Assembly (NCBI GenBank): GCA_937936785.1
Contig: CALDDQ010000006.1
Coordinates: forward strand, 68,739 to 132,738
DNA from: an uncultured Endomicrobiia bacterium
Lineage (GTDB): Bacteria; Elusimicrobiota; Endomicrobiia; DTEH01
DNA: 64,000 bases
Direction: 5' to 3'
The notes below the pieces were generated by a model. The model had not been told where the DNA came from. It searched no databases and saw nothing but the letters and a program-made list of their open reading frames with translations. Shown piece after piece: positions 24,613-48,797 of this stretch; positions within the stretch are counted from its first letter, which is position 1, and the number at the start of each line of letters is the position of its first letter. Both the position numbers and the translations under genes were made by a program.

Positions 24613-26607
24613 TTAATTAAACGAATAAATTCTTTCTGGTAACAATGTTTTCTCTACTAAAATTTTTTTCTTGATAAGTTTGGCTATTGATTCTTTAATA
24701 ACATTTTCCTCAGGATATAAGTATTTTAAAAGGTTAAATTTAAAATCTCGTCCTATAGCAGAAGCTATCTGCAAAACTTCTTTTGTTTTAATATCTAACT
24801 GATCTACTTGACACATTACTGCTACATAAATTTTTTGTGGGATATCAATCTTATTTATTTGTCCACTTATTGAAAACCCATCACCATTATTCAATATTGC
24901 TCTTGTTTCTATTAAATTGTTCACCAAAGCTTCTACAAACAATGGTACCCCTTCAGCGTTTTGTAGTATTATATCTTTGACATTTTTTAATATCATATTT
25001 TCTCCCAAAAGATTATCCAACAACTTGTTTGAACAACCAATTGTCATTTCAGGCAACATAATCTCTCTAAAATAATTTTTTTTGCTCCAAGGAATTTGTG
25101 TATCAGGCAATGATGTTGTTATAACCAACAACTGTTTTGTCTCACAAAGATCTACTATAGACTCGAACAACGTTAGCAAAGTTGCATTTGCATAATTTAA
25201 GTCTTCTAAAAAAATTATTAGTGGTTCATTCTTTAATATTTCTACCAGAACTTGTTTTATTCCTGTATTAACAAATTTATTTTCTTTAACATCATATACA
25301 ACAACCATTGATCCTTGTTGTCCATAAGGTAAACATCTAAATTCAAAATATCGTATTCCTAATTGTTGTACATATTTTGATAGTTCATACATCAATCTTG
25401 ATTTCCCAAAACCATACTGTCCTGTAATAGATACTGCATAACCATTGTGTGAATTTTCTACAGAAACATCTTTTATCCTATCTATAAAATTTTTAGTAAA
25501 ATTATATTCTCGTTCAGGAATAATGTATGGCGAAATTTTATTATTAACAGATATAAAATTATATCTCAAATATTTTGCTCCTTTTAATTCATATATGTTT
25601 AAAGCATCCTGTTTACCTTTCACATTTATCGATGGAAGTTTATAAAACACAAACTCGTTCTTAGAATATTTGTAAGTTTCTTCAGAAATAACAATCTGGT
25701 TTGGTAGAGCAATTGTTTGCAACCTTGATGCCACATTAACAGTATCTCCCATGACAGTATACTCACTTCTCGTTTCAGAACCCATTTCACCAGCAACAAC
25801 TTCACCAGTATTTATTCCAATACGAATTTGTAATTTTTGTGGTAATTCAGCATGTGTTTTATTAAACTCTTGTAATTTATATAACATCATTAATGCAGTT
25901 TTAAGTGCACGCTGCGGATCATCCTCGTGAGTTATTGGTATCCCAAAAAGTGCCATTATAGCATCTCCAATAAATTTGTCAATAACACCACCATACATAT
26001 TTATTGCTTCAACAAAACCTTTAAAACATTCGTTTACAACTTTTTTAACATCTTCAGGATCCATCTGTTCAGCCATAGAAGTAAATCCTGTCAAATCTGC
26101 AAATAAAACAGTAACAATTCGTCTTTCACCTTCGGAAAATTTTGGGCCATAAATTATTTTATCTAACATTTCTTTTGGCAAAAATTTTTGTAATTGAGCA
26201 ATTCGTGCTTCAATAATTTTTTCTTCTCTTTGAACACGGCGCAAAGCTACTTTTACTCTTGCAATTAATTCACTAGAGTTGAACGGTTTTGTAACATAAT
26301 CATCAGCTCCTGTCTCTAACCCTTTAATTTTATTATCACTAGAACCTAAACTGGTACACATTATTACTGGAATGTGCATTGTTGTAGAATCGTTTTTTAT
26401 AATTCTTAGCACGTCCACTCCTTCCATATCAGGTAACTGCCAATCAAGAACAACAAGATCTGGTTGAATCTCTTTTACTTTTTTTATTCCTGTTTCGCCA
26501 TCATCTGCAGATGAAACATCGTATCCTTCATCATTTAAAAGTTCCACAATTAATCTTTGAATATCTATCTCATCATCAATAACAAGTATTTTAAATTTTG
26601 TGCCCAT
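24613..26607 (-). CDS. receiver (REC) - class III adenylate/guanylate cyclase - STAND/AAA ATPase fusion protein
   Basis: REC: 'ILVIDDE...DLVVLDWQLPDMEG'. Cyclase: 'VTVLFADLTGFTSMAE' and 'GDTVNVASRL'. ATPase: P-loop 'GQYGFGKSRL' and 'AEGVPLFVEAL', typical of cyclase-associated ATPase domains. No C-terminal TPR/HTH domain. Confidence 0.8.
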   Translation of the reverse strand: MGTKFKILVIDDEIDIQRLIVELLNDEGYDVSSADDGETGIKKVKEIQPDLVVLDWQLPDMEGVDVLRIIKNDSTTMHIPVIMCTSLGSSDNKIKGLETGADDYVTKPFNSSELIARVKVALRRVQREEKIIEARIAQLQKFLPKEMLDKIIYGPKFSEGERRIVTVLFADLTGFTSMAEQMDPEDVKKVVNECFKGFVEAINMYGGVIDKFIGDAIMALFGIPITHEDDPQRALKTALMMLYKLQEFNKTHAELPQKLQIRIGINTGEVVAGEMGSETRSEYTVMGDTVNVASRLQTIALPNQIVISEETYKYSKNEFVFYKLPSINVKGKQDALNIYELKGAKYLRYNFISVNNKISPYIIPEREYNFTKNFIDRIKDVSVENSHNGYAVSITGQYGFGKSRLMYELSKYVQQLGIRYFEFRCLPYGQQGSMVVVYDVKENKFVNTGIKQVLVEILKNEPLIIFLEDLNYANATLLTLFESIVDLCETKQLLVITTSLPDTQIPWSKKNYFREIMLPEMTIGCSNKLLDNLLGENMILKNVKDIILQNAEGVPLFVEALVNNLIETRAILNNGDGFSISGQINKIDIPQKIYVAVMCQVDQLDIKTKEVLQIASAIGRDFKFNLLKYLYPEENVIKESIAKLIKKKILVEKTLLPERIYSFN

Positions 26608-26623
26608 ATTTTTTTTATCAATA

Positions 26624-27367
26624 TTAAACTAATTTTTTAATATTGTCCAACAACTCTTTTTCAGAAAGTGGTTTTGTAAAATATTCTGACGCACCGTATA
26701 ACAACGCTTTTTGTCTGTATCCTTTTAAATCATAACCAGTAATAACTATTATTGGTATATGTTGTGTAACCTTGTCACGTTTCAAAATTTTCATCACAGA
26801 AAAACCATCCATACCAGGCATATGTAAATCTAACAAAATCAAATCTGGCAATTTTTGTTTTGCATATGTTACACCATCTGGTCCATTATCTACTATTTCT
26901 ACCATATAATTTTCCGAACCTAAGTATTCTTTTATATAACCAGACGTATCCTTTTCATCATCAATAATTAATACATGTTTCTTTTTATCAGCAGTTTTTT
27001 CAAGACCATTCTCAACATTTTTTATACTTTTATACAACTCACCAAACTCTATCGGCTTTGACAAAAAATCCACTGCACCAAGATAATATCCCCTTTCTTT
27101 CTGAATACCTTCAACTATTGAAATAAATATAACTGGAATATTTTGTGTTTCAGGATCTTTTTTTAACATCTCTAAAACTTGAAACCCGTTCATCTGTGGC
27201 ATCATTATGTCTAAAGTTATTAAATCAGGTTTGAATTGTTTAACTTTTTTTGATGCTTCATCTCCACTATATGCAACTTCTACATCATATCCTTCAAATT
27301 CTAAGTTGATTTTTATCAAATTTGCAATTGAATGTTCGTCATCTACTACCAAAATTTTTTTTATCAT
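26624..27367 (-). CDS. tandem-receiver response regulator (REC-REC, no output domain)
   Basis: Two CheY-like domains, each with DD...D...K residues: 'ILVVDDEHS...LITLDIMMP' and 'VLIIDDEKD...LILLDLHMPGMDG'. Confidence 0.8.
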   Translation of the reverse strand: MIKKILVVDDEHSIANLIKINLEFEGYDVEVAYSGDEASKKVKQFKPDLITLDIMMPQMNGFQVLEMLKKDPETQNIPVIFISIVEGIQKERGYYLGAVDFLSKPIEFGELYKSIKNVENGLEKTADKKKHVLIIDDEKDTSGYIKEYLGSENYMVEIVDNGPDGVTYAKQKLPDLILLDLHMPGMDGFSVMKILKRDKVTQHIPIIVITGYDLKGYRQKALLYGASEYFTKPLSEKELLDNIKKLV

Positions 27368-27390: not shown

Positions 27391-29046
27391 TTATCTTTTA
27401 AAAAATTTTGTTAATGTATCGTATAATTGCATTATTTCTTCTTTTGAAACTTTTTTTATAAGATTGTTTATTTTACCTTTTTTTTCATTAAAAACTTGTT
27501 CGTTTACAAAAAGTTTCATCAATGGAACTTTTTCTATAATATGGTCCAACTTTAACAAAATATCTTTATTAACTTTGTTCTCCAATATTAAAATTATTGC
27601 CTTAGATTCTGGAGTTATTTTAATGTTTTTATTCGGAAATAACACTTCAATAACACTTTTTGAAACAAGTTTACTTGCTAAATATAATCCTTCATCTGTA
27701 ACATGTAAATTTTCGTCTGTACTAACAATTTTTTCTTTATCAGGTTGAATCTCATCATCTCTAATTTCTGTTTCTTTTATTTCTTGAACAAATTCTGTAT
27801 TTATCTGCTTTTGTTCTGCTTCTTTTTGTTCTTGTACTACATTTTCAATTTCTTTATCATGATGAGAAATATCTTCTACTAAATTTTCATTTTTAAGTTC
27901 TGGAACAATTTTTTCTTCTTGTATACTTAACTCTTCTATAATTACTTGTTGATTGCCAATATCTGTGTTTTTTTCAATTGTTGGGTAATCAACAGGTTTT
28001 TCTATCTTTTGTTCTTGTTTATCTAAACCTTGTGGTTCTGACGTTTTTTTTAAATTACTTTGTTCAATTGATTCACCTGTTATATTTTGCATTTTATCTT
28101 CATTTTTAGTATCCAAAAACATTGTAAAATCCGGAGGTAATAATGAAGTTTCAACACTTGAACTAATATTTTCTGTTTCTTTATTAGTTATAACTTCTTC
28201 TACTGAATTATCATCTAAAATATTTTTTTCTTGTATATTCTGTTCCACAATATCTTGTTGTTCTATAACAGACATCTTATCTTCATCTCTTTTTTCATAA
28301 AATATTTCGTTAGTTGTTTCAGATGGTTGATTATCATGAATTTTTGGAATAATTTCTTCCAACACAGATAATTCTTCTGGTATTACATTGAAATCATCAG
28401 TAACAACAACAGGTTCATTTTTTATTAAACTATTATCAATTACTGACTGTTCAGTATTTGCTACAAATTGTTCATTGTTTGAACTAACAAAAAAATTTTT
28501 TTCTGATTGAATTTGATCTTGACCTTTTGGTTCAGGGACAAAATTTTCTGTTTCTAATTCTACAACTTTATTCTCTTGGTCAGGTTTTGTTTTTTCAATA
28601 ACATCTTTAGATTCTTTAGAAATAGTTTCTGTATTTATAGATTCTTGCATACTTGATTGCTCTAAACCTTTTTTATTAATATCACCTAAAACTTTTTTTA
28701 CTACAGCAACAATTTTTTCTTCTTCATATGGTTTCTGAATAAAATCTTTTGCATCAAATTTTATTAGCATTTGCATTTCTTGATCAAATTTTCTACCGGT
28801 AACCATAACAACAGGAATATTTCTTGTTTCCTGTATACTTTTTAATTTTTGTAAAAGTTCATAACCAGTCAAAAAAGGCATATTGTTATCTGTAATAATC
28901 ATATCAGGTTTTTTTTCTTTTGCAACGACAACTGCTTCTTCTCCATCTGATGCTTCTAAAACTTCTATGTCATAAGGTTCTAAGTATATTTTTACAAGGT
29001 TTCTTAAATCTTCTTCATCTTCAGCAATTAAAACTTTTTTTGTCAT
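27391..29046 (-). CDS. response regulator with N-terminal REC, about 330-aa acidic low-complexity linker and an uncharacterised C-terminal domain
   Basis: REC: 'VLIAEDEEDL...DMIITDNNMP'. Then an E/Q/K/N/D-rich disordered segment. C-terminal about 110 aa of unknown fold. Confidence 0.65.
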   Translation of the reverse strand: MTKKVLIAEDEEDLRNLVKIYLEPYDIEVLEASDGEEAVVVAKEKKPDMIITDNNMPFLTGYELLQKLKSIQETRNIPVVMVTGRKFDQEMQMLIKFDAKDFIQKPYEEEKIVAVVKKVLGDINKKGLEQSSMQESINTETISKESKDVIEKTKPDQENKVVELETENFVPEPKGQDQIQSEKNFFVSSNNEQFVANTEQSVIDNSLIKNEPVVVTDDFNVIPEELSVLEEIIPKIHDNQPSETTNEIFYEKRDEDKMSVIEQQDIVEQNIQEKNILDDNSVEEVITNKETENISSSVETSLLPPDFTMFLDTKNEDKMQNITGESIEQSNLKKTSEPQGLDKQEQKIEKPVDYPTIEKNTDIGNQQVIIEELSIQEEKIVPELKNENLVEDISHHDKEIENVVQEQKEAEQKQINTEFVQEIKETEIRDDEIQPDKEKIVSTDENLHVTDEGLYLASKLVSKSVIEVLFPNKNIKITPESKAIILILENKVNKDILLKLDHIIEKVPLMKLFVNEQVFNEKKGKINNLIKKVSKEEIMQLYDTLTKFFKR

Positions 29047-29077: not shown

Positions 29078-30517
29078 TTAAATTCTTACACCATCTTTTG
29101 GTACATACTGTTTAGGCAATGTAAACCAAAACGTAGTCCCAACATCAACTTCGCTTTCAACCCAAATTTTTCCTCCATGACCTTCTGTTAACCCTTTTGC
29201 AATTGACAAACCTAAACCAGTCCCTTTTGCACCTTTAACCTTTTTTCTGTGTTCAGAAACCTGTTCAAACTTGCTAAAAATTTTTCCTAAAGATTCCTTT
29301 GGTATTCCTATCCCTGTATCTGCAACACCTATTTGAACATACTCTCCTTTGTCAATATATTTTAATGTAATTTTTCCACCTTCAGGAGTAAATTTAAGTG
29401 CATTACTTAACAAATTTGTTATAATTTGTCCAACCCTATCTTTATCTATCATAAGTTTAGGTGCATCTGGTGGAACTTCGGAAATTAAAGTAATCTTTTT
29501 ATCTTCAGCAACAGATTTCATCAATGTCATAATTTCGTTTGCTGGTTCATACAAACTTACTAATTCAGGTTTTATTTCCATCATACCAGCTTCGATCTTT
29601 GCTAAATCTAAAATATCATTTATAAACCTGCCTAACCGACTTGTGTTATTACTAACTATTGTTAAAAACTCTTTTTGTCTTGGAGAAATTTCACCTGCTC
29701 TACCTTCTAACATTAAGTTAATATAACCTTTTATTGCAGTTAGTGGAGATCTTAGTTCATGTGTGACTGAAGACATAAAATCTTCTTTCATTCTGTCAAG
29801 TTCTTTTAATTTCTGTGCCATTAAATTAAAATCTTTTGCTAATTCGCCAAGTTCATCTTTACTTTTTACATTAATTACAGTATCTAACTTTCCTTCACCA
29901 ATTTTGGCTGCTCCCTGAGCTAGTTTTTTTATTGGATTTGTCATTGTCTGAGCTAAAATAAATGAACCCACTAATCCTAATATCAAAGCTATTGCTGCAA
30001 CAATCAAAATCCTGTCTCTAGTTTTGTTTAACGCAACTAAAACATCCTTGTCAATAACTTCCTGCAAAAGACCTAATCGCACATACCCTACTATATTATT
30101 TTGAATTCTTACTGGCACAGAAATGTCTAAAACTTTTTTATTTTGATTTTCCCAAGAATTTATTGCAACAGAATTTGTATTATAAATTTTATTCCAAACT
30201 TCATCATTAATTTCAACACCCATCTGTTCAAAATTTGTATGAGCATAAACTATTCCAAGAGATGAAATAAACATTGCATACGAAATCTCAGGTTTTTTTT
30301 TGATCAATTTAATATAATTTAATAGCACTAACTCGTCTGAAATAATTATTGATTCTTTCGCAATCTCAGACAACGATTCTGCATCACGAATGCGAGACTC
30401 TTGTTTTTCTTTTATTAATGTTTGTCGTTCAAAAATAAATAACACTACCGCTACTAAAAGTATTACTGTTATAACAAGAGAAACTGCAGTTAGACCAAGT
30501 TTTGTCCTTAATTTCAT
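29078..30517 (-). CDS. sensor histidine kinase (TM - HAMP - HisKA - HATPase_c)
   Basis: H-box 'SSVTHELRSPLTAI', N-box and G-boxes 'GTGLGLSI', and two N-terminal TM segments flanking a periplasmic domain. Confidence 0.85.
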   Translation of the reverse strand: MKLRTKLGLTAVSLVITVILLVAVVLFIFERQTLIKEKQESRIRDAESLSEIAKESIIISDELVLLNYIKLIKKKPEISYAMFISSLGIVYAHTNFEQMGVEINDEVWNKIYNTNSVAINSWENQNKKVLDISVPVRIQNNIVGYVRLGLLQEVIDKDVLVALNKTRDRILIVAAIALILGLVGSFILAQTMTNPIKKLAQGAAKIGEGKLDTVINVKSKDELGELAKDFNLMAQKLKELDRMKEDFMSSVTHELRSPLTAIKGYINLMLEGRAGEISPRQKEFLTIVSNNTSRLGRFINDILDLAKIEAGMMEIKPELVSLYEPANEIMTLMKSVAEDKKITLISEVPPDAPKLMIDKDRVGQIITNLLSNALKFTPEGGKITLKYIDKGEYVQIGVADTGIGIPKESLGKIFSKFEQVSEHRKKVKGAKGTGLGLSIAKGLTEGHGGKIWVESEVDVGTTFWFTLPKQYVPKDGVRI

Positions 30518-30623: not shown

Positions 30624-32576
30624 TTATTTTTTAATTTCTTTTTCCAAACGTTCTACTCCTTTTTTTGCACGATCATTTCCTGGATCAAGTTCGGATGATT
30701 TTTTCCACAACTCATACGCTTTTTTCAAATCACCAGAAGTGTAAGCTTTTAGCCCTTCCGTATAAAGTTTTGCTGATTCTTCTTTGTTTAAAACAATTTG
30801 TAGTTCATATTTTTGTTGTGCTTGAGATAATTTTGATGACACATCTTTATAATTTGGTATCAACTCTAACAATTTTTTGAAAAGTTCTACTGATTTTGAA
30901 TAATTTCCTCTATCAAAAAATGCTGTTGCTTCTTGATACATTTTTTCTGCTTGTTTTAATTTTTCTGTCTCTTTTTGTTTCGCTACCATCTCATTTTGTT
31001 TTTGTTTTGATAATGTTAAATATTCTTTTGCTTTTTCATGGTTGGGGTCTATCTCTAAAATATTTTCCATTCGTTGAATAGCTTTTGTATAATTACCTTT
31101 TTCATAAAAATTTATCCCTTCAGTAAAATAAACTGTTATACGTTGTTTAATTGCCTCTTTATGTATGTTATCAATTTTTTGCAAGTAAGATTTTGATTCT
31201 TTATGTTCAGGATTTAGTTTTATTATTATATCAAAGATTTCTCTAGCTTTTAAGATATCTCCTTTATCAAACAAATCTTTCGCTTGATTAAAACTTTCTT
31301 TTATTTCTTTATCAATCTTTTCTTTTAGTTTTTCTTGTTGCACTTGTTTAAACAATTCCTCAATTTTTTTAATTTCAGTTTTTGCTTCAGTATGAGTAGG
31401 ATCAAGTTCTGTTATGTATAACAACTCTCTATATGCATGCAGATATTTCCCTGAACTTATATACAACATAGATTTTTTATATGATTTATCAATTAAATAT
31501 GATACTACACTTATCTTAGATGATGTTACGTTACCAAATTTAATTGTAATATTTGCCTTGTGTGTTTCACCAAATACCACAAACGGTGCAAAAGAATAAT
31601 CAAACCGAAAATTATTAATTCCTATACCAAAACCTATCCTTGGACCTTGGTCAAGATATAACTCTGAAGCAAACTTATATCCTGCACGAATGGCTAATAT
31701 ATTCATTATAAAATATTCTGCCCCAAAACTTATAAAATTTGGATTTAAATTAAAATCTATTCCTGTAGTCAATGGATTCCCAACAATATCTTTTCGATAC
31801 GCAATACCAAATTTTGTATTCAATGGAAATTCTGACATTTCTGTATCAAACTGTAATCCACCAAAATAATTTTGTACAGAAACACCTGTTCTAATACTAC
31901 CATTAAAAAGTTTAGTTTTAGGTATAAATAATAAACCAAAATCTGAAGTTATACCTGACTTTGTTATTTCAGCTAATTTTTTGTTTACTAACTTTGCACT
32001 AATCCCTGCATATAGTCCAGGTTTAAAATCTGGCATATCAATTGTTTCTTTATACCTTGCTATTCTTTGAGAATAAACTAAACTAATTGCCATATCGTTT
32101 GCTATAACTGTCCCTTTAGAAACACCACTAGAATCGTAAGCTTTTATCTCTTCCATACTTAAATAATATATCCCTATCCCAATATTGAAATCATAACTTT
32201 TCTTTCCCTGCCTTTTAAATATAAATGGGAAATTGTATCCACTGGTAAAATAATTTATATTTTCTATATACCTGTTGTAGCCAAAAGATAATTCATACAA
32301 ATCCAGCTGTGCTAATCCTGCAGGATTATAATAAATACTTGTAACATCATCACTTATTGCACAAAATGTTTCTGCTAACCCTGTTGCACGGGCACCAATG
32401 CCTATTTTTAAAAAGTTTGCTGTAGTATTTGAAGAAAAACTTTCCTGAACAAAAAGGTAAAATTGTAGAACAAAAAAAATTTTTGTTATCATTATAAAAA
32501 ATATCTTTATGTAAACATTACTTTTCACTTTAACAACTTTTTTTACCATGAAATATTTTCTATAAACATTTTTCAT
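30624..32576 (-). CDS. PorV/PorQ-like (FadL-like) outer-membrane beta-barrel fused to C-terminal TPR repeats
   Basis: Signal peptide. 'GARATGLAETFCAISDDVTSIYYNPAGL' resembles the N-terminal signature of T9SS PorV/PorQ family barrels. About 350-aa beta-strand-rich region, then about 280 aa of TPR-like helical repeats (KAIQRMENILEIDPNHEKAKEYL and similar). Confidence 0.45.
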   Translation of the reverse strand: MKNVYRKYFMVKKVVKVKSNVYIKIFFIMITKIFFVLQFYLFVQESFSSNTTANFLKIGIGARATGLAETFCAISDDVTSIYYNPAGLAQLDLYELSFGYNRYIENINYFTSGYNFPFIFKRQGKKSYDFNIGIGIYYLSMEEIKAYDSSGVSKGTVIANDMAISLVYSQRIARYKETIDMPDFKPGLYAGISAKLVNKKLAEITKSGITSDFGLLFIPKTKLFNGSIRTGVSVQNYFGGLQFDTEMSEFPLNTKFGIAYRKDIVGNPLTTGIDFNLNPNFISFGAEYFIMNILAIRAGYKFASELYLDQGPRIGFGIGINNFRFDYSFAPFVVFGETHKANITIKFGNVTSSKISVVSYLIDKSYKKSMLYISSGKYLHAYRELLYITELDPTHTEAKTEIKKIEELFKQVQQEKLKEKIDKEIKESFNQAKDLFDKGDILKAREIFDIIIKLNPEHKESKSYLQKIDNIHKEAIKQRITVYFTEGINFYEKGNYTKAIQRMENILEIDPNHEKAKEYLTLSKQKQNEMVAKQKETEKLKQAEKMYQEATAFFDRGNYSKSVELFKKLLELIPNYKDVSSKLSQAQQKYELQIVLNKEESAKLYTEGLKAYTSGDLKKAYELWKKSSELDPGNDRAKKGVERLEKEIKK

Positions 32577-32717: not shown

Positions 32718-33089
32718 TTACTTTATTACAATAACTTTCCCTGCTTTACTTTCATTATCCTTCTTTATAATATAAATATAAACATCACTTGAAGGCAAAT
32801 ATTCGCTAAACTTCCACTCCGACTGAAAATCTTTTTTATTATTTCCTTCATAAATAGTTAAAACTTTTTCGCCATTTAATGTGTAGATATCAATAATTGC
32901 ATCTTTTGGTAAATCGGTAAATTTTATACTCTTGTCTTTGTTAAAATAACATGGTACCGGATACACCCAGGAACTTTCAATTCCTGTTTCACAAAATATG
33001 TTTTGTGTCCCAAAATTTATCAAGCATACAATTGTTATTAAAAAAACTGTTTTGGCTGAAACTTTTATTTTGCACATTTTTTTCTCCAT
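32718..33089 (-). CDS. small secreted protein consisting of a signal peptide plus a T9SS C-terminal sorting domain only
   Basis: 'WVYPVPCYF...AIIDIYTLNGEKV...DVYIYIIKKDNESKAGKVIVIK' parallels the giant protein CTD 'YAYPVPYRPN...AVIKIYTINGELI...DVYIYIIENKKNKKTGKLIVVR'. An 18-nt identical DNA stretch (tatataaatataaacatc) is shared. Confidence 0.6.
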   Translation of the reverse strand: MEKKMCKIKVSAKTVFLITIVCLINFGTQNIFCETGIESSWVYPVPCYFNKDKSIKFTDLPKDAIIDIYTLNGEKVLTIYEGNNKKDFQSEWKFSEYLPSSDVYIYIIKKDNESKAGKVIVIK

Positions 33090-33144: not shown

Positions 33145-36100
33145 TTATCTTACAACAATCAACTTACCTGTTTTTTTATTTTTTTTATTTTCTATTATAT
33201 AAATATAAACATCGCTACCTACATTAACATCTTCCCAAGAAGTTTTGTAATCTTCAATACCATCATCTTGAGGTTCTTTAATTGTTTTTATAAGTTCACC
33301 ATTGATGGTATAAATTTTTATAACTGCTTCTCGGGAAAGGTTTGTAAAAGTAATCTTTTTATGTGAGGAATCAGTATTTGGTCTATATGGCACAGGATAA
33401 GCATATGCATCATCTAACGAATAATCCTCTTCCCCGACAATCATATAAACTGAAAAATGTTGAACATAAACAGATACAGTATTTTCTTCTATATCAACTA
33501 CAGAATCTGGAATCCTTATCCAAACATTGTCTTCTTCGTCTAAATAGTAAATTTTTAATGTTTTTTCTTTAACTTTTTTAGACAGATTGTCTATATAACC
33601 ATCTTGATCATCATCTTTATATGGAATTGTAATCTTAATTTTATTTTTAAAATTTCTTTTTATGACATTTTTGTTTTCATCATATAAAACAAATTCTCGC
33701 ATAGTATTCACAAGAGATGTTTTATCTTCTACCTTTGTTATTTTATCATTTGCAATTTCAATTTTTTGTGGTTTAACATCTACTTGATTAGATTGTGGAT
33801 CTTTGCCTATTATTAAATAAGCATCTTGTGATAAAGTATTTGGATAAATCTCTACTACTGTTTTATCTTCTTCTAAAGCAAATTTGTTTTCCTTCTCATA
33901 ATCCATAATTGTAGTAAAAACAAAATCTATTTTTTGATCAATGGTATTACCAAAAATATCTTTCACACCAGAAGAAATTGTTACTTTATACTTATAATTT
34001 TTATTTAAAACTTCAACAGGAATAAGTTTTATTTCTAAGTTATCTAAAGAAAATACTCTATAATTTACCTCTTGATTAATTTGTTGATTTAAATTATTTT
34101 TTATCTCAAAAATCTTTACTGCATTGGAAATTGTCATTGTATCTATATAATCATCATAATATATTGTTGGAATTATAGTATTAGCAATCCCTGCATCATT
34201 ATTTTGTGGATAATGTGATATTACTGAAGCGACATATTTTGTAACAATTTGCACTGCATCAGAATATTCTGACCAATGACCAATATCATCTTTTGTCCTA
34301 ATCCAAAATTTATATGTTGTTTTTGGTAATAAATCAGATAATATTATACTTGCAGAAACTGACGGACTAAACGATGTTGTAAAATATATCATAAACTCTG
34401 CTGAATTAGCATTTGAAACCATAGATGAACTATATTTAATTTCTACTGCTCCATCAACTACACTCCCTACATATCCATCATCACCAGGATATGTCCAAGT
34501 AAGTTTTATCTGTCCAATTGATGTACCTTTAACTGCAGTTAAATCTTTAACTTTTCCAGGAGGAAAATTATCCTGAGCATAAGTAGATACTGTTGTTGCT
34601 TGAGATAATAAATAATTTAGGTTATAACTCGCTATTCGATAAAAATATGTGGTATCCAAAATCAGGTTTGTATCTATAAAACTTGTATCAATACAAGAAG
34701 ATGTTAATTGAACCCAATAATTTGTATCAGTAGACCGTTCAATTTTATATCCTGCAACACCGCCAATAGGATGTGCCCATTTAAGTTCTATTGCATTGCT
34801 TGACAATGTTTCTAAACTAACATTTTGTGGAGGTAATGAATGTGTTACTACAGTAACTATTTCACTATATTTTGTTTCAATATTATCTTCATTTCTGGCT
34901 TTTACTCTTACATAATATGCAGTATTAGGAATTAAACCAACAACATTTGTACCAACATCTCCTCCCCAAGAAGAATATGTTTGCCAAAACGGTATTAAAG
35001 ACAATGTTCCATCTGTTTGAACACTAACACTTGAACTAAAATTTGAATATGTGCTTACATAAATAATAAACTTTGTATTTTGCGGATTATCATTTGGAGA
35101 AATTTTTAAGTTAAAAGTAGTCGTTGAATATGTGGAAATTATTGGAATATCTGGATCATTAGCTAAAGTATATCTTGACATTGTTACACTACTGCTAAAA
35201 ACTCCATCACCATTAGTATAACGAACAGAATAAGTATATTTTTCATTTGGTGGTAAACCTGCAATCAAAGTTGCGTTGGCAGAGGTATCAACAGAATAAC
35301 CACCTGCTCCCTCTATGCAATCAAAATAATATCTACTTAACTCAGATCTATCATTTCTAAATTTTTCAACTGACATAAAAATTGCTCCTGCAACAAGTTC
35401 TGTATTCATAACAAAATTTTGTGGGACTCTGGTTTTTGTATACTTTCTTAATACTGTTGTATTATATTCGCTCCATATACCATTTACATTCTTATATTTT
35501 ATTCTATACTCATATGAAGTATTTTCCAATAATCCCGTATCTGTAATAACATAACTTCCTGTAGTTATATAAATTTTTCCTGTTGTTACACATTCTATCA
35601 TAACCCCAGCTTGCCCTAAAGTCGCATTATGTAAAGGTTCTGAAGTTCTTATTACTAGAAACGCTGATGATGAAATATCTATATCAACCCATAACTTGTT
35701 ATTTGTTGGATTTGAAATTAAAGTATAGGTGGTTATATCTAAAGTTTGAGAAACTTCTTCCCCAATCACATTTCTTGTTTTAATTATATACCTATAATGT
35801 GAATTTTCATTCAATCCAGTATCCGTATGTGCTGGATCAACAGACCATCCTCTACTATCAGAACCACCACCTTGCGACATTGACAGAAAACTTATCCCTG
35901 ACAAACCTAAATTTAAGTTGTTTAAAACATCTAACAATCTTAATGAAATACTGCTAGTTCCAACATAATCCCAAACTGCTTCCGTAGGATATTTCATTGC
36001 TGTATAAGAAACTATACTTGAAGTTGTTGTCTCTATTCCACCAAAATTTCGCGCTTTAACAAATAATTGATATGAAGTATTATGTAACAGTTCATTATTA

Positions 36101-39100
36101 GTTGACCAATAAGTTGTATTTATCCAGCCAGAAGTTTTTAATTTAGAATACGGTGTTGTCGTAGTCGTCCACACTTCAGCAAAAAATTCGTTTTCGCCAG
36201 AAGATGCTTCCCAACCCCAAATAATACTTTGTGGTGTTGCGGTAAGTTTACAAAGATTTTTTGGTGGAATAGAAGGTGTAATTTTCACACCTAAAAAAAT
36301 TGTTGTTGTTTCTACCAACGACTCATTTCGTGCTTTTACTCTGAAATAATAGGATGTATTTCCTGTTAAACCTAAAATTGTCCAAGTAGTTTTTGCAATC
36401 CAGCCACTATTGGCAAATATAGAACTAAAATTTTCTCCTGTTGTAGAACATTCAACATAATACTTTGTGATTAAAGAATTGTTGTTTGGCCACCATGAAA
36501 CTGTTATAGAATCAATGCTAATATCTAAAAACGGTTCTGTAGGTACAACTGGGACATTGGCAAATGTCCAAATAGTTGTAGTGTTGACAAAATCACTAAA
36601 TTCTCCCTCTGCATTTTTATACCTTATTCTATATTGATATGCAGAATTTGGTAAAAGATTATCATCAATAAATATTCTTTGTGTAGAAGAATTTCCTCCA
36701 CCAGAATCATATATACAAGTCCATTCATAACCAGAATTGCCTATAGTATCATTAGAAAAACTATCAACAGAAAGTTGTACTGATTGGGTAGATAAAACTA
36801 TCACACTAACATTTTTTGGTATATTACATAATGTATATTTATATTTTAATTCACTATATTCACACCATACACCATTAACATTTTTATATCTTGCTTTATA
36901 ATAATAACTCGTATTTTCTAAAAGTTGATTTTCTTGCCATGAATATTGTCCTGTTAAAATTGTAGAACTACCAGTATTTATATTAACAATTTCACATCCG
37001 GTTTGTCCTAAGGATTGGTTCGGTGGTGTAGATAAGTTTACAACTAAAAATGTGGAAGAAGATGCTATTATATTTATTTTTGATAATGTTGGAACTGCAA
37101 TTAGTGTATAGGTAGAAATTTCTGTTGTAAAATTTGTTTCCACATTATCAGCATTACGAGATTTTATTTTATATGAATATGAAGTATTTTCTGTTAAATC
37201 AGTGCAAAAAAATTCTAAACTTTTTTGCCAGAAAGATTCTTTTATTTCTCCACTGCCAGAAGTAACATAAAAATATACTCCTGATTGTCCTGAAGTTATG
37301 TTTGTTAAATTGTTTAATATACGAATACCGATACTACTTGATCCTACAAAATAAATTTCTGAGTCAGTAACAGGTTCTATTGCTGTATATGTTTTTGTAG
37401 ATACAACATTAGTTTCTATATCAAAAACATTTCTTGATTTAAGATTCAAGGTATATTCTGTATTTGGTAACAAATTGTATACTGTCCAACTTGTCATTTT
37501 TATCCAACCACTATTTGTTGATGGTTCTATTATATATGAATAAAATTCTTTCTCACTGCCACCAGATGTCCAATTCCAAGTTATTGTGTTTAATGTTATT
37601 GATGAGCTTAAAACTATTATTGGCACATTTGATAATGTAGCTGTTGTGCCTAAAATATAGTACGGTTCTGTCTCTGGAGTTGAAATGTTGTTATTATTTA
37701 TTGCACGAATTCTAAAATAATATGATGTGTTAGAAACAAGCCCATTAAAAATATAGTTCGTGTTTATGGTTAAAGAACTTGTTATTATAGAATTAAAATT
37801 AGAAGTAGAAGATGTTTCTATAAAATATTTTGTCCAAATTGGATTAAAATTGTTTGACCAACTGACTTTGATTGTGTGCGTTGAAAGTTCTGAAAATAAA
37901 TTTTCTACACTTACAGGAGAATTACACAAAGTAGATGTAGCGTTGAATAAGACAAAATCTGTTGTTACATTTTCATAATTAATTGCACTTATACGAAAAT
38001 AATATGTAGTATTTGGAAATAAATTAGTAAATATTGCTTTTAAATTTGTCGTTGTAGAAGAATTTAATATTGGTAGAAAGTTTATATTTGTTGATATTTG
38101 GACAAAATATTTTGTCCCTTGAGGGTTCTGAGGTAATGATGATGTCCAAACAGAGTGTATGGCAGAAGAAGTTATTGTTTCATATCCTTCAACAACAGGA
38201 TTTGAACACAAGGTAACTTTGGTCCCTAAATAAATTTCTTTTGTAGGAACATTTTTATGATTGATTGCTTTTACTTTGAAATAATATGTTGTATTCGGCA
38301 ACAGATTGTCAAATATAGCATATAAATTGTACGTTTGTGAAGAAGTTATAATATTTTCAAAATTATCTTGTGAAATTTCACACAAATATTTTGTTTTGTT
38401 TGGCGGATTACCGTTATTACTCCAATTTGCTTGTATTGACGAAATAAAAATGTTGCTAAAAGATGCTGTTGAAGGTTCTATACATAAAGTTACCGTTGTT
38501 CCTATAGCACCCCACAAACTTATGTTACCTTTAGTATCTTTAAACTTTTGTGAGAAATAATATGTTGTATTATACAAAAGTTCTGTTACATAAAAAGTAG
38601 GATTTTCACTACTAACCCATATCAGATCTATCCAGTTAATTCCATCAGTACTTTTTCTCACCTGCCATTGCCATAGACCTACTCCTATTTCTGTAACTGA
38701 AGATTGGAAAACATTAATTGAACTTATTAAAACTTCTGAAAAAGATGTTATTCCTATATTGTAAGGTGCAATTTTATCTATCACAAATTGTTCACTTAAA
38801 ACACTTAGTATAAAATTACCGTCTGTTAATGTTATACTTGTATGTACTGTATTGTAATAGTTACTGTCTAATTCTAATGTGTCAAATAAAAAAGTTATTT
38901 TGTTTTCTTGGTTGGAAATATTTGTTAATATTTGTTTATTTTCACTTTCACCAATCTGATATTCTAAACCATCAATGCTTAAAATACCATCTGAATCATA
39001 ATATGAAGCAGTGGCTGTGGATATTACACACTTGTTCCATACACTTAAATCTGTTGTTGTAGTATAACTTACCATTAACTTACATTTGTCTGAATTTTCA

Positions 39101-42100
39101 TCATTAATTTCAACTTGAACTGTTATTTTTCCACTACCGTCAGTTGTTTGAGTTGGTAAAGAAATATAATTTACTGTAGGGGCTACATTTGAAACAAAAG
39201 CAAGAAATGTTGTTGTACTGAAATTTGTATCAATATAGTTACCATATTCATCTTTCACTGTTGGAGGTGTGGTAGTAATTTTTATTGTATAGGTACTTTG
39301 TTGCAAATGTTCCTCTTGAGTATAAATCCTAAATGTGTTCCCGCTTATATAAGTAATACTCGTTATGGTTAAAATAATTTCAGGTGAACTACTCATATAA
39401 ACAGAATAATATGTTGTGTTAGTAGAAACATTTATATTCATCATTTTATCAAAAGAAAAGTTTGCACTGTTTGTACTAACTGCATTTGAAACAGATAAAA
39501 GTTTTGGCGAAGTACCACTATAGTTTATAACAAAAGTCGTAATATCAACAGAATAAACATTTCTATAATTTGCAGAACGAACTTTGAAATACCAAAATCC
39601 ATCACTATCTGCTTGTTTAATAATTTCTGTCCCATCCCAAAATGTTGTTGGAATTGCATTAATATCTGTTCCCCAATAATAGTAATAATGACTTGCAATC
39701 GCTTTAACACTAAAAGTTGCTATCCGACCTTCGTAACCACATTTTGCACTTGACGCTGTACTAGAAACAAAAATGCCTGAATAAAAAATTTTAGGTTCTG
39801 TTGGCAACGTGCACGTTGAACCAAAAAATGTTAGCTCACTTTCTATAAACTCTTCATTTTGTGACTTTCCTATAAAATAATACGTCGTATTAGCATCTAA
39901 TTTTGTAAATAAATAATTGTTGCTATTTGTCCAATTAGAAGTTTCACTAAATATAGTAAAATTTATGTCAGTAGAAACCGATACAAAATATTTTGTATAT
40001 AACGGATTTTGATTGTTAGACCAATTTAATATTATAGTGTAAGTAGAGATGTTTGTAAAACTGTTAAAAATGGGAATATTGGCTAAAGTAAATCTTGCCG
40101 TAGTTTCAGAAATTAAACTTTCTACTAAATCATTATATGCTACAACATATCTATAATAAGATGTGTTTGGAACAAGATTTTTTTCATTATAATATGTTGT
40201 ATTAAAACTTATATCTGCCAATATTCCACCAGTTGAACTTTTTAGTTTATACCCTATTTCTGCTAAAGAATTATCTTTCCATGCCCATTGAATTGAACCT
40301 GTGGTAATATTTACTGCTATAAATCCAGTTGGCGGATTAAATAATGTCTTGGTATAAATTGCTGTTGAAAGTTCTGATTCCAGCGGTGAACTAAAATATC
40401 CAAAACCTATGTCACCTAAATCTGTTGCTATAAGTTTGAAATAATACGTCACACCTGCAATAAGGTTTGTAACTACGGTATTACTACTCGGATGAAAAAC
40501 TGTTTTTGTTGAAACAAAATTGTCAGTCTTGGATTCAAAATTATATGTTGCATAATAAATGTTATATTTACTTCTATCATCAAAATATTCTGGTGGGTGA
40601 GGATTTGTCCATTCCAAAAATATATCTGTTTCACCAAGTGTAAACGCAGTAAGGTTTGTTGGGACAGATAATGGTAAATCTGCAGCAAATGTTGACACAG
40701 TATCTGACCATACGGACCAGTTTGGTCTTTCATCTGAAGCACGAATTTTAATATAAAAAGTTGTTCCTGGAAATAATCCTGTTAACGAAAAAGTTTGTTT
40801 CTCTGCTTGAATATATGAAGTAGTTAATATCACAAAATCAGATGGGATAAAATCTGTGCTTGTTGAATACTGTATCTGCCACCTTCCAAAAGAAACATTC
40901 CCTGTATAATTATTATCTCCTGGAGCAGTCCAGATAAGAATTATTTCGCTATCAACATTTCCTGTGTTTGCACTAAATCCGGTAATTTTTCCTGGCGGGA
41001 TATAATCATCTCGCGAGCACGTCGAAATTATAACACTAAATTCGGCCCAATTCGGAACTTCGTCTGCCATACGAACTTTTATGTAATATGAAGTATTATT
41101 AATCAATCCAGTTAAAACTATACTTTGAGAAGAATGTAGTATTGTATCCGTAGAACGAATTATCTTGTCGTATATAGAAAAACTACCATCAGTAGAAAAC
41201 TGTATTTCATATTTTCCTCCAACAATATTTCCATAATAATTATCATCACCAGGAGCAATCCAACTAAAAATTATTTCGCCTTCATTTGCTCCAGTTAATG
41301 CAGATAGATGATTTACTATACCTGGCGATTGGTTTGGACAAATCTGTTGCACTATTGACCAACTTGAAGTTCTAAGACCAGAATCAATTGTTTTCACCCA
41401 CCAATAATATGTTGTATTTTCTATTATATTTTTTAATATATGATTTTTCTCACTTCCAGTTCTTACAAAATTTCCCATTAATGGACTACCAAATGAACCA
41501 GAAACAATTATTGAATCTGTTGGCAATATACTTGTGGTAATATGTATGTTATAATATAACCCTGAAATTCCTGTTTCCGTATCAGAAAATCCACTAAATC
41601 TTAAATTTAGTTTTCCGCTATCAAACCATGACAAAAACAATGTTGGAACCGTTGGAGAAAAGTTAGAATTAGAAAATTCTGCTTCTAAAGATTTATAAAC
41701 ATAGTTTTTTTGGCCATAATTACCAAATACAATATCTAAATCTCCATCATTGTCTACATCACCCCATTCTGAAGTTCGTGTAGATTCTAATTTAACAGAT
41801 TCCCAAGATAAATTAAAATTGTTAAAAAAATTATTATATCTATATATTCTATTTTTACCATCGTTAGATATTAATTGATCCAAATATCCATCATTATCAT
41901 AATCTCCCCAAGAAACTTTATATGTGTTATCCACATCTAAAGATTCCCAAAAAAAATAAAAATCTGTTCCATTATTATTTTTGTATACCTGATTTTTTCC
42001 TAAATTGCCAACTAAAATGTCTAAATAACCGTCATTATCGTAGTCTCCCCACGCTACACTACTTGGGTCTGTACTAATTCCAATTAAAGATTTTTCTTGA

Positions 42101-48311: not shown

Positions 48312-48797
48312 TTATAACACAAATTTGTCTATTGGAATTTGCATCTTTTCTCTTGTTTCACCAAAATATTGTCTATAACTTGAAAATTCGTAATCTTTAA
48401 CATCTATAACCAATTTTTGTCTAACAGGATTGTTGTGAATATAATTTATTCTATTAATCAACTCTTTTTTATCTTTCAACACAGTCTCATAATACCTTCT
48501 CTGCCATACATGATCTGTTTTTTTATAAATTTGATTATATTTTCGTGCAAAATTACCCTTAATAAAATTCATTATCTTTGATAACGAATATTTTTCTGAT
48601 GGAGCAATAATTATATGAAAATGTTCTGGCATTATTACATAACCAAAAAGTTTAAATTCTAATATGAACCTATGATATGATATTGTTGCCAAAAGAAATC
48701 TTGCATTTATTGGTTCTAAAAATATTTTTCTTCTTAAATACGTAACTGATGTAACAAAATAAACGCCTTCTTTTTGAAAAAAATGTTTTAGTTTCAT
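48312..48797 (-). CDS. tnpA: IS200-like / REP-associated tyrosine transposase (HUH Y1 transposase)
   Basis: 161 aa. HUH motif 'MPEHFHIIIAP' and catalytic Tyr region 'NYIHNNPV'. Confidence 0.8.
   Translation of the reverse strand: MKLKHFFQKEGVYFVTSVTYLRRKIFLEPINARFLLATISYHRFILEFKLFGYVIMPEHFHIIIAPSEKYSLSKIMNFIKGNFARKYNQIYKKTDHVWQRRYYETVLKDKKELINRINYIHNNPVRQKLVIDVKDYEFSSYRQYFGETREKMQIPIDKFVL

What the first reader, a model, noticed from the sequence alone, without database searches (positions are those of the whole stretch)
30624..32576. PorV/PorQ-like outer-membrane barrel fused to about 280 aa of TPR repeats
The N-terminal half carries the GxxAxGxAxxxxAxxDDxxxxxxNPAGL signature I associate with T9SS PorV/PorQ FadL-like barrels, which normally have no extra domains. 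Here a C-terminal TPR array is appended, and the gene sits directly downstream of T9SS cargo genes. A TPR-bearing shuttle could be a dedicated chaperone or adaptor for the giant cargo.
Basis: partly seen in the sequence, partly recalled or inferred. Interest (0 to 1): 0.55.

Follow-up and report, generated by a model that had tools for sequence, protein, structure and literature searches.

The report
PorV-like barrel with periplasmic TPR arm
This gene encodes an outer-membrane barrel of the PorV/PorQ family carrying a 300-residue TPR-like arm, probably periplasmic, and it appears to be the dedicated membrane partner of the giant surface protein encoded just upstream; the design turns out to be common in uncultivated bacteria, though nobody has studied it.

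Summary
ORF 30624..32576 (-) encodes 650 aa. Residues 51-347 match NCBIfam NF033709 (PorV/PorQ family) end to end at 128.7 bits (cut-off 90). The AlphaFold model (pLDDT 91) is closest to Flavobacterium PorV (8gl6_F). Residues ~352-650 form five TPR-like repeats.

It is not an orthologue of PorV or PorQ, because both equivalog scores fall far below cut-off.

The fusion is not rare. At least 67 clusters at 50% identity combine this barrel with a C-terminal extension of 250 aa or more. NCBI already labels the close Endomicrobia relatives 'PorV/PorQ family protein'.

The gene sits in a conserved cassette: giant FN3/FG-GAP/Big_5 protein with a T9SS type-A C-terminal domain (CTD), small CTD-only protein, barrel-TPR, sCache histidine kinase, response regulators, cyclase. 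Across 64 related loci, 47 have a CTD gene next to the barrel (Fisher p 9e-21).

Relatives carry an OmpA_C domain in the same C-terminal position, which supports a periplasmic location for the arm.

Best reading: a cargo-dedicated PorV-like anchor or shuttle whose periplasmic arm docks partners. Whether these Elusimicrobiota have a type IX translocon could not be tested. I rate it a new variant of a known kind, of moderate interest.

The parts
30624..32576 (-). Gene for the 650-aa PorV/PorQ-family barrel with a C-terminal TPR-like arm
   Evidence: ORF. NF033709 at 128.7 bits against cut-off 90. AlphaFold model with pLDDT 91.2. An independent gene caller uses the same start and stop.
32430..32576 (-). 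N-terminal leader, about aa 1-49: basic stretch, then hydrophobic stretch IFFIMITKIFFVLQFYLFV. Read by eye as a Sec signal peptide.
   Evidence: Sequence. RBS AGGAG 10 nt upstream of ATG 32576. The N-terminus is conserved in P0002. No signal-peptide predictor was available.
31536..32426 (-). Hatch segment (aa 51-93, with the NPAG motif at 84-87) plus the beta-barrel (aa 94-347), ending in ...NITIKF
   Evidence: NF033709 covers aa 51-347. Strands span model residues 66-319, which is ORF aa 94-347. Best Foldseek hit is PorV 8gl6_F, E 2.8e-12, TM 0.65. N84, A86 and G87 are invariant across 68 homologues.
30627..31523 (-). C-terminal arm, aa 352-650: five TPR-like repeats, each a 34-aa TPR motif plus a K/E/Q-rich helical spacer. 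Inferred to be periplasmic.
   Evidence: Pfam TPR_2 at 71.3 bits. Helices 324-621 of the model. Repeat alignment. Relatives have OmpA_C in the same position.
32718..33089 (-). Small 123-aa protein: a leader followed by a CTD only
   Evidence: TIGR04183 at 27.3 bits against cut-off 23. 39% identical to the giant's CTD. Equivalent small ORFs occur in L001, L009, L010 and L011.
33145..46209 (-). Giant 4354-aa presumed surface protein (FN3, FG-GAP, DUF2341, Big_5) with a C-terminal CTD
   Evidence: Pfam. TIGR04183 at 29.4 bits on the last 151 aa.
33148..33441 (-). CTD of the giant protein (aa 4257-4354)
33910..34227 (-). Big_5 domain of the giant protein (aa 3995-4100). The C-terminal Big_5-to-CTD module is the part conserved among the cargoes of all full-length barrel-TPR loci.
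   Evidence: Pfam PF13205. phmmer with giant aa 3951-4260 gives E 3e-11 to 5e-72 against the cargo in the eight other full-length loci (L001, L007-L012, L068) and E 3e-27 in L013.
29078..30517 (-). sCache_3_2-HAMP-HisKA-HATPase sensor histidine kinase directly downstream
   Evidence: Pfam. Orthologues sit in the same position in L001, L007, L008 and L068 (E 5e-127 or better), and nearby in L013 and L014.
27391..29046 (-). Response regulator (REC, low-complexity linker, small C-terminal domain)
26624..27367 (-). Double-REC protein
24613..26607 (-). REC plus class III nucleotidyl cyclase plus P-loop region. This is the last conserved gene of the cassette.
   Evidence: Orthologues in L001, L007 and L008.

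Best explanation
The gene encodes an outer-membrane protein. Its first half is a plugged beta-barrel of the PorV/PorQ family, which I count as 14 strands. Its second half is a 300-residue arm of five TPR-like repeats that, by topology, hangs into the periplasm.

I propose it is the cognate 'PorV-like' partner of the CTD-bearing proteins encoded immediately upstream. It would bind their CTD at the outer face of the membrane and hold the giant FN3/FG-GAP protein on the cell surface, as PorQ holds PorZ, PorV holds PorU, and PorP/SprF-type barrels hold type-B cargo in Bacteroidota. The periplasmic arm would dock the barrel to periplasmic or inner-membrane partners. That is the job done in trans by the TPR lipoproteins PorE and PorW in the classical type IX system.

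Shown here: family membership, fold, a CTD on the neighbouring genes, conserved synteny, and enrichment of CTD genes next to such barrels. Inferred: periplasmic position of the arm, CTD binding, surface anchoring, the partners of the arm, and which translocon moves the cargo.
For: 1. Family and fold.
- NF033709 at 128.7 bits (cut-off 90), full-length match.
- Profile of 68 homologues against PDB sequences: PorV 6h3i_F at E 7e-44.
- AlphaFold pLDDT 91.2. Top Foldseek hit is PorV within the SprA-PorV-substrate complex 8gl6_F (E 2.8e-12, TM 0.65), ahead of TodX, TbuX and FadL.

2. Cargo link.
- Both upstream genes pass TIGR04183.
- No terminator-like site was found on the coding strand between the cassette genes.
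- All nine full-length barrel-TPR loci (window, L001, L007-L012, L068) have a co-directional Big_5+CTD protein directly upstream. Five of them also have a small CTD-only ORF in between.
- Across 64 loci, 47 have a CTD gene adjacent to the barrel. Adjacent genes are CTD-positive in 55 of 117 cases against 43 of 517 for other genes (Fisher p 9e-21). With un-iterated phmmer the figures are 21 of 64 loci and p 2e-10.
- The curated model passes on the cargo tails of L001, L009, L010, L011, L068 and L002. The strongest matches are to the CTDs of PorZ and PorU, the two proteins known to stay bound to PorQ and PorV (PMC10202324).
- A distant 840-aa barrel-TPR family shows the same order behind a type-B CTD protein.

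3. Periplasmic arm.
- The barrel ends in a beta-signal-like ...ITIKF.
- I read the DSSP string as 14 strands, counting the kinked 116-146 stretch as one.
- Relatives carry the peptidoglycan-binding OmpA_C domain in the same C-terminal position, and one has OmpA_C followed by TPR.
- TPR matches are mostly to periplasmic, OM-associated TPR proteins such as BamD, PilW, Tgl, TraC and YbgF, though cytoplasmic ones (MamA, SycD/LcrH) are also hit.

4. The organism is a diderm with LPS: LptB, LptC, KdsC, KdsD and LpxL are in the window.

5. The concept already exists. Cognate PorV-like barrels are discussed in PMC10202324, specialised PorP/SprF shuttles linked to their cargo genes in PMC12618676, and PorE (TPR ... 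OmpA_C) binding PorP in PMC12152298 and PMC12773672.
Against: - No binding data exist, and I could not run a complex prediction.
- The protein fails the PorV and PorQ equivalog cut-offs.
- Type IX secretion is described as confined to Bacteroidota or the FCB group (PMC10994853, PMC12398890), and I found no paper reporting it in Elusimicrobiota.
- No SprA, PorK/L/M/N, PorU or PorZ gene was seen in the 64-kb window or in the sampled flanks of related Elusimicrobia loci. The translocon for a 4354-aa cargo is therefore unknown.
- Members of the same superfamily in Treponema pallidum, some with a small C-terminal TPR bundle, are interpreted as nutrient importers (PMC8407342).
- Pfam's own CTD model stays below threshold on both neighbours. 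Four of the ten relatives' cargo tails tested are below the TIGR04183 cut-off.
- The iterated CTD HMM could have drifted towards generic C-terminal beta-sandwiches.
Confidence: 0.58

Rival explanations
1. It is a secretion-coupled signalling relay. The periplasmic TPR arm, or the small CTD-only protein held by the barrel, talks to the periplasmic sCache domain of the histidine kinase encoded next door. Occupancy of the barrel or load on the adhesin would then control the response regulators and the cyclase. This can coexist with the anchor role.
For: The sCache-HAMP kinase is directly downstream in the window, L001, L007, L008 and L068 (E 5e-127 or better), and a related kinase lies nearby in L013 and L014. 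The REC-REC and REC-cyclase genes are conserved too. Kinase and regulator genes also flank the distant fusions in L005 and L006. There is a precedent: the CTD of the small cargo PorA binds the kinase PorY in the periplasm and switches on PorXY-SigP (PMC12152298). The CTD-only ORF is conserved in five loci.
Against: L009, L010, L011 and L012 have the cargo-barrel pair without the kinase downstream; they have TPR-only proteins, efflux genes or glycosyltransferases instead. There is no evidence of contact. The kinase is not a PorY orthologue by any test run here, and the 551-aa regulator matches PorX only in its receiver domain.
Confidence: 0.2
2. It is a FadL-type importer of hydrophobic nutrients, like the UPF0164/FadL-like barrels of Treponema pallidum. 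The TPR arm would hand the substrate to periplasmic carriers, and the position next to the giant gene would be incidental.
For: It belongs to the same superfamily and has a hatch with the NPA motif. There are weak hits to Toluene_X (16.2 bits) and UPF0164 (14.5 bits). TodX, TbuX and FadL are among the Foldseek matches. T. pallidum TP0548, TP0859 and TP0865 have a periplasmic C-terminal helical bundle with a TPR motif (PMC8407342). Type IX secretion is not documented in Elusimicrobiota.
Against: CTD genes are strongly enriched next to the barrels (p 9e-21), and cargo-barrel synteny holds down to 22-25% identity. PorV is the best structural and sequence match, well ahead of FadL. The Pfam FadL and UPF0164 scores are below cut-off.
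Confidence: 0.12
3. It is itself the exporter of the neighbouring surface protein: a TPR-plus-barrel translocon in the manner of Slam (type XI) or of PgaA/BcsC.
For: It combines TPR with what I count as a 14-strand barrel, next to its presumed substrate. There are weak TPR_Slam hits of 29 bits here and 20-31 bits in the neighbouring TPR proteins of L009 and L012. No other translocon was seen nearby.
Against: TPR_Slam is below its 35.2-bit cut-off. The domain order is reversed, since Slam, PgaA and BcsC have the TPR at the N-terminus. The barrel is homologous to PorV rather than to DUF560 and is modelled as plugged by its own N-terminus. A barrel this small cannot pass a folded 4354-aa multi-domain protein.
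Confidence: 0.05
4. The fusion is an assembly or gene-calling artefact that joins two separate genes.
For: In L014 the barrel (373 aa) and a TPR protein (415 aa) are adjacent ORFs in different frames.
Against: The single ORF is uninterrupted here. It was assembled independently in a second data set (P0001 and L070). It is conserved end to end in at least 67 sequence clusters.
Confidence: 0.01

Closest known systems
[quoted passage not shown] Flavobacterium johnsoniae PorV in PDB 6h3i and 8gl6
   Same: It is a FadL-type barrel plugged by its own N-terminus and the best structural and sequence match. It belongs to the same NCBIfam family, NF033709. PorV binds CTDs of cargo, and here CTD genes are adjacent.
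   Different: The PorV equivalog score is 49.6 against a cut-off of 250. PorV is a general shuttle for all type-A cargo, has no C-terminal domain (402 aa in 6h3i_F), and is not usually encoded next to one cargo. Here there is a 300-aa periplasmic arm, a dedicated genomic partner, and an Elusimicrobiota host.
The PorQ-PorZ pair of the Porphyromonas gingivalis attachment complex
   Same: A PorV-like barrel permanently holds one protein through its uncleaved CTD (PMC10202324). PorQ is the best equivalog match of this barrel at 87.7 bits. The cargo CTDs of related loci match the PorZ CTD best, up to 60.9 bits.
   Different: The score is below the PorQ cut-off of 220. The cargo is a giant FN3/FG-GAP protein rather than PorZ. 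PorQ has no TPR arm.
PorP/SprF-type shuttle barrels with type-B CTD cargo, and the lipoprotein PorE that binds PorP
   Same: The barrel gene lies next to the gene of its own cargo, often a huge adhesin such as SprB (PMC12618676, PMC9143113). PorE supplies periplasmic TPR and OmpA_C domains to the PorP barrel (PMC12152298, PMC12773672). Here the TPR is fused to the barrel, and relatives add OmpA_C.
   Different: The window protein has no PorP/SprF (TIGR03519) match at E<=1. The cargo CTD is type A rather than type B. The domains are fused instead of being separate proteins.
Treponema pallidum FadL-like / UPF0164 proteins TP0548, TP0859 and TP0865
   Same: They combine a 14-strand FadL-superfamily barrel containing an NPA-motif hatch with a C-terminal, presumably periplasmic helical domain carrying a TPR motif (PMC8407342).
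   Different: Those have a single three-helix bundle, not five repeats. They have no CTD neighbours, are interpreted as importers, and are spirochaetal. The authors found no other FadL with such a tail, whereas searches show that many exist.
Slam (type XI secretion), and PgaA or BcsC
   Same: Each combines TPR with an outer-membrane barrel that serves a surface or exported product.
   Different: The domain order is the opposite and the barrels are unrelated. TPR_Slam scores only 29 bits against a cut-off of 35.2.

Membership tests
PorV/PorQ family (NCBIfam NF033709) | Full-length profile match above the curated cut-off | tested here: met
   128.7 bits against 90; aa 51-347 cover profile positions 2-326 of 326. 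All 64 long relatives also match at E<=1e-5.
PorV/PorQ family (NCBIfam NF033709) | 14-strand FadL-type barrel with the N-terminal segment inside the pore | tested here: met
   Model pLDDT 91.2. I count 14 strands if the kinked 116-146 stretch is taken as one. Best Foldseek hit is PorV 8gl6_F, E 2.8e-12, TM 0.65. Coordinates could not be inspected, so the plug position is inferred from the family.
PorV/PorQ family (NCBIfam NF033709) | Binds the CTD of type IX cargo | not testable with these tools
   Only genomic linkage is available: CTD genes lie directly upstream and are enriched next to such barrels.
PorV orthologue (NF033710 equivalog) | Score at or above 250 bits | tested here: not met
   49.6 bits.
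PorQ orthologue (NF033711 equivalog) | Score at or above 220 bits | tested here: not met
   87.7 bits.
PorP/SprF family (TIGR03519) | Profile match | tested here: not met
   No hit at E<=1 for the window protein. The distant 840-aa fusions give only 24-29 bits against a cut-off of 90.55.
Type IX secretion system (as a system) | Translocon SprA/Sov, motor PorL/M, ring PorK/N and sortase PorU in the same genome | not testable with these tools
   None were seen in the window or in the sampled flanks of related loci (the remaining window ORFs were read by eye).
Type IX secretion system (as a system) | Cargo with a type-A or type-B CTD | tested here: met
   TIGR04183 scores 29.4 and 27.3 bits against a cut-off of 23. 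Pfam PF18962 is below its cut-off. The model of the CTD-only protein was too poor to confirm the fold (pLDDT 59).
FadL / Toluene_X (PF03349) and UPF0164 (PF03687) | Pfam match above the gathering score | tested here: not met
   16.2 bits against 29.7, and 14.5 bits against 21.4. Superfamily-level structural similarity is present.
TPR repeats | Pfam TPR models above the gathering score, with helix-turn-helix repeats | tested here: met
   TPR_2 71.3 bits, TPR_1 35.1, TPR_11 34.9, TPR_19 35.3. Five repeats. Alternating 14-aa and 34-43-aa helices. The array is not contiguous and canonical, because each motif is followed by a long helical spacer.
Slam / type XI secretion | N-terminal TPR_Slam plus a C-terminal DUF560 barrel | tested here: not met
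   TPR_Slam scores 29 bits against 35.2, there is no DUF560 hit, and the domain order is reversed.

The most novel reading that the evidence does not exclude
Elusimicrobiota, which lie outside the Bacteroidota/FCB group where type IX secretion is described, may carry self-contained display-and-sense cassettes. In this reading a giant adhesin is held by its own PorV-like barrel. The barrel has absorbed the periplasmic TPR function of PorE or PorW. A CTD-only mini-protein, acting like PorA, reports barrel or translocon occupancy to the adjacent sCache kinase, and the output runs through receiver proteins to a nucleotide cyclase. In distant relatives the same barrel-TPR sits beside a membrane FliG-like protein and MotA/MotB stators, which hints that such barrels could be moved or loaded by a motor.
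Probability: 0.2. Interest if true: 0.75.

Novelty: new variant of a known kind. Interest (0 to 1): 0.48.

Why it matters
Work on type IX secretion has begun to recognise that CTD cargo can be handled by cognate PorV-like barrels (PorQ with PorZ, PorP/SprF with type-B cargo). That work comes almost entirely from a few Bacteroidota.

This locus shows that one-cargo-one-barrel pairing is widespread in uncultivated phyla, and that a large subfamily has fused a periplasmic TPR arm onto the barrel. A fusion of this kind points to a physical partnership, here barrel with TPR scaffold, that is otherwise hard to find. It gives experimenters a defined construct for asking what the periplasmic side of a PorV-like barrel touches.

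The tight linkage to a sensor kinase and to a CTD-only protein offers a second, independent case for testing the recent claim that a CTD can act as a ligand for a two-component system.

It also raises a concrete, checkable question: do Elusimicrobiota have a type IX translocon, or do CTD and PorV-like barrels work with something else?

Tried and rejected
- **FliG-like regulator?** I asked whether the 551-aa response regulator is a FliG-like protein, as found in the distant loci. BLASTP against the L002 and L006 proteins found nothing. It is REC plus a variable linker plus a small conserved tail.
- **Type IX core genes nearby.** I looked for them next to related barrels in Elusimicrobia loci. 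The neighbours were TPR-only proteins, RND efflux, glycosyltransferases, ComEC-like proteins, transporters, and an O-antigen-ligase-like TPR protein. No SprA, PorK-N or PorU was found.
- **Fold of the CTD-only protein.** With only 3 sequences the model reached pLDDT 59. Foldseek gave nothing at E<=0.001. T9SS CTDs (8glk_D, the PorZ entry 5m11, the RgpB CTD 7pq4) appear only among weak hits. The PDB sequence search was empty. I treat this as inconclusive.
- **Homologues of the CTD-only protein.** The word-index search found only an identical copy and one protein at 68% identity, so that tool could not measure its spread. Offline phmmer found equivalents in L001, L009, L010 and L011.
- **Literature.** Searches for type IX secretion in Elusimicrobia or Endomicrobia returned nothing relevant.
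- **Alternative start codon.** I considered M29 as the true start. The RBS before M1 and the conserved N-terminus in P0002 favour M1.
Full report
**1. What is there**

The ORF is exactly as reported: 30624..32576 on the minus strand, 650 aa. AGGAG lies 10 nt before the ATG, and an independent assembly and gene call give the same protein (P0001 and L070).

The window has about 29% G+C, and nearly all genes are on the minus strand. The nearest named relatives are MAG proteins from Endomicrobia/Endomicrobiia, at 65% and 54% identity. NCBI already labels both 'PorV/PorQ family protein'.

LptB, LptC, KdsC, KdsD and an LpxL-type acyltransferase are in the window, so the organism has an LPS-containing outer membrane.

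**2. The barrel**

- Residues 51-347 match NCBIfam NF033709 (PorV/PorQ family) over the whole profile at 128.7 bits, against a cut-off of 90.
- The equivalog models are far below cut-off: PorQ 87.7 of 220, PorV 49.6 of 250, PorV2 46 of 325. The protein is therefore a family member and not an orthologue of either.
- Pfam sees only sub-threshold PorV, UPF0164 and Toluene_X hits.
- An AlphaFold model built on 68 homologues has pLDDT 91.2. It shows short N-terminal helices carrying the conserved ...DDxxxxxxNPAG... segment, then long strands from ORF aa 94 to 347, ending in ...NITIKF.
- I read the strands as 14, counting the kinked 116-146 stretch of the model as one strand.
- The top PDB match is PorV in the SprA-PorV-substrate complex (8gl6_F, E 2.8e-12, TM 0.65), followed by TodX, TbuX and FadL.
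- The family profile finds PorV 6h3i_F at E 7e-44.
N84, A86 and G87 are invariant in the alignment.

**3. The arm**

Residues 352-650 are all helical, alternating 14-residue and 34-43-residue helices. They align as five repeats with the pattern xxAxxxFxxGxYxKAxExFxxILxLDPxHxxAKxxL, each followed by a K/E/Q-rich helical spacer. Several Pfam TPR models pass their cut-offs.

Three observations place the arm in the periplasm:
- It follows the last strand of what I count as an even-stranded barrel.
- Relatives carry the peptidoglycan-binding OmpA_C domain at the same place: P0257, P0245, P0127, L015, L020 and L063. One relative, P0237, has barrel, OmpA_C, then TPR.
- The TPR similarities are mostly to periplasmic, OM-associated TPR proteins such as BamD, PilW, Tgl, TraC and YbgF, although cytoplasmic ones (MamA, SycD/LcrH) are also hit.

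This is an inference, since no topology predictor or model coordinates were available.

**4. How unusual is the fusion?**

It is not unusual.
- An exhaustive profile search of 1.84 billion cluster representatives gave 26,871 hits at E<=1e-3.
- Among the best 150, 127 have a complete barrel. Of these, 53 carry a 250-400-aa C-terminal extension and 14 carry more than 400 aa.
- All 64 of the long proteins that I aligned match NF033709, and 55 match TPR-type models.
- In a barrel-only search, 83 of 119 homologues have no tail. The rest have short TPR, HEAT, SH3 or OmpA tails, and an LpoB-like tail was seen in one homologue from the first search.
- In species-representative genomes, five of the six full-length matches are in Elusimicrobiota MAGs and the sixth (L008) is in an unclassified 'bacterium' MAG. 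Barrel-only relatives occur in Calditrichia, Zixibacteria, KSB1, WOR-3, Latescibacteria, Fermentibacteria, Cloacimonadota, Ignavibacteriales and others.
- A published precedent is the trio of T. pallidum FadL-like proteins with a small periplasmic TPR bundle. Its authors thought this arrangement unique (PMC8407342).

**5. Context**

The gene order in the window is:
- giant 4354-aa FN3/FG-GAP/DUF2341/Big_5 protein (33145..46209);
- 123-aa protein (32718..33089);
- barrel-TPR;
- sCache-HAMP histidine kinase;
- response regulator;
- REC-REC protein;
- REC-cyclase.

Both upstream proteins end in a type-A CTD above the TIGR04183 cut-off. The small one is a leader plus a CTD and nothing else, and its CTD is 39% identical to the giant's. 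No terminator-like site lies on the coding strand between these genes.

The same cassette recurs in other genomes:
- L001 (54% identity) carries the full cassette.
- L007 and L008 (36%) carry it without the small CTD-only ORF.
- L068 (34%) has the cargo, barrel and kinase, but different regulator genes downstream (hybrid kinases and a T2SS-type ATPase) and no REC-cyclase orthologue.

L009-L012 keep the cargo-barrel pair but not the kinase downstream.

In every full-length locus, the cargo shares the Big_5-to-CTD tail with the window's giant, while the rest of the protein varies.

With a CTD HMM iterated on the held loci, 47 of 64 loci have a CTD gene adjacent to the barrel. Adjacent genes are CTD-positive in 55 of 117 cases, against 43 of 517 for other genes (Fisher p 9e-21). 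Using only un-iterated phmmer hits, the result is 21 of 64 loci and p 2e-10.

The curated model confirms the CTD on six of ten cargo tails tested. All ten match the CTDs of PorZ and PorU, and PorZ is the top hit for eight of them.

**6. Interpretation**

In Bacteroidota, PorV shuttles type-A cargo. PorU and PorZ keep their CTDs and remain bound to PorV and PorQ. Type-B cargo is handled by PorP/SprF-type barrels encoded next to the cargo gene (PMC10202324, PMC12618676). PorP is bound by PorE, a periplasmic lipoprotein with TPR and OmpA_C domains (PMC12152298, PMC12773672). PorW, another TPR lipoprotein, links the translocon to the PorK/N ring (PMC8754138).

The protein here looks like a cognate PorV-like barrel for the neighbouring giant protein that has the scaffold arm built in.

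The kinase next door and the CTD-only mini-protein recall PorA, whose CTD activates PorY (PMC12152298). That supports a signalling side to the cassette, but only by analogy.

The FadL-type importer reading fits the superfamily but does not explain the gene pairing. A Slam-like exporter reading fails on domain order, on homology, and on the plugged barrel of only 14 strands.

**7. What remains open**

I could not determine whether these genomes encode SprA/Sov, the PorKLMN machinery or PorU. None is present in the window or in the sampled flanks, and the literature held here does not report type IX secretion in Elusimicrobiota. This is the single most informative missing fact.

**8. Verdict**

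It remains an uncharacterised variant of a known kind, with a well-supported genomic partnership and a plausible but unproven mechanism.

Noticed in passing
L002:615-9819, L005:298-9695, L006:3097-10242: Distant barrel-TPR fusions (about 840 aa and 555 aa) sit beside a 500-585-aa protein with FliG_M and FliG_C domains (plus a faint FliF C-terminal hit in L005 and L006), a MotA/ExbB protein, a histidine kinase and a response regulator. L002 and L005 also have two MotB/OmpA proteins. In L002 the upstream fn3 protein carries a type-B CTD. This looks like a stator-and-rotor module attached to a cargo-barrel pair, and I know of no described system like it.
   Followed up: partly
window 32718-33089 (-): A 123-aa protein consisting only of a leader and a CTD, a paralogue of the giant's CTD (39% identity), lies between the cargo and the barrel. 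Equivalent small ORFs occur in L001, L009, L010 and L011. It may be a PorA-like ligand or a competitor for the barrel. Its model was too poor to confirm the fold.
   Followed up: partly
L014:2718-5089: In one Elusimicrobia MAG the barrel (373 aa) and a TPR protein (415 aa) are separate adjacent ORFs in different frames. This is either a natural split of the fusion or a frameshift in the assembly.
   Followed up: no
L009:11892-13364, L011:12009-13367, L012:7170-10507: TPR-only proteins lie directly downstream of the barrel-TPR gene. Those in L009 and L011 resemble the arm itself (phmmer E 6e-20 and 6e-14), as if the module had been duplicated to act in trans.
   Followed up: partly
L021:10965-13154: In L021, the gene directly after the CTD-cargo and barrel pair encodes a 729-aa protein that is O-antigen-ligase-like (IctB / PEP O-glycosylation ligase models) with a TPR tail. 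This hints at attachment of the cargo to a glycan.
   Followed up: no
window 48312-48797 (-): A REP-associated tyrosine transposase (NF047646, 121 bits against a cut-off of 80) is wedged between ispG (gcpE) and a P-loop kinase-like gene.
   Followed up: no
window 36001-40000: GC skew is about 0 inside the middle of the giant gene, whereas the rest of the window runs between -0.09 and -0.36. This is presumably the composition of the repeated FN3 modules.
   Followed up: no
window 56952-57644 (-): By eye, this membrane protein ends in ...ARIGGGRIC... where a GGDEF motif would be expected. That suggests a frameshifted or degenerate diguanylate cyclase. I did not test it.
   Followed up: no
window 27391-29046 (-) and L001:10137-11171: The response regulator of the cassette keeps a 70%-identical receiver domain and a small conserved C-terminal domain. 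The acidic low-complexity linker between them differs by about 200 aa between the two genomes.
   Followed up: partly
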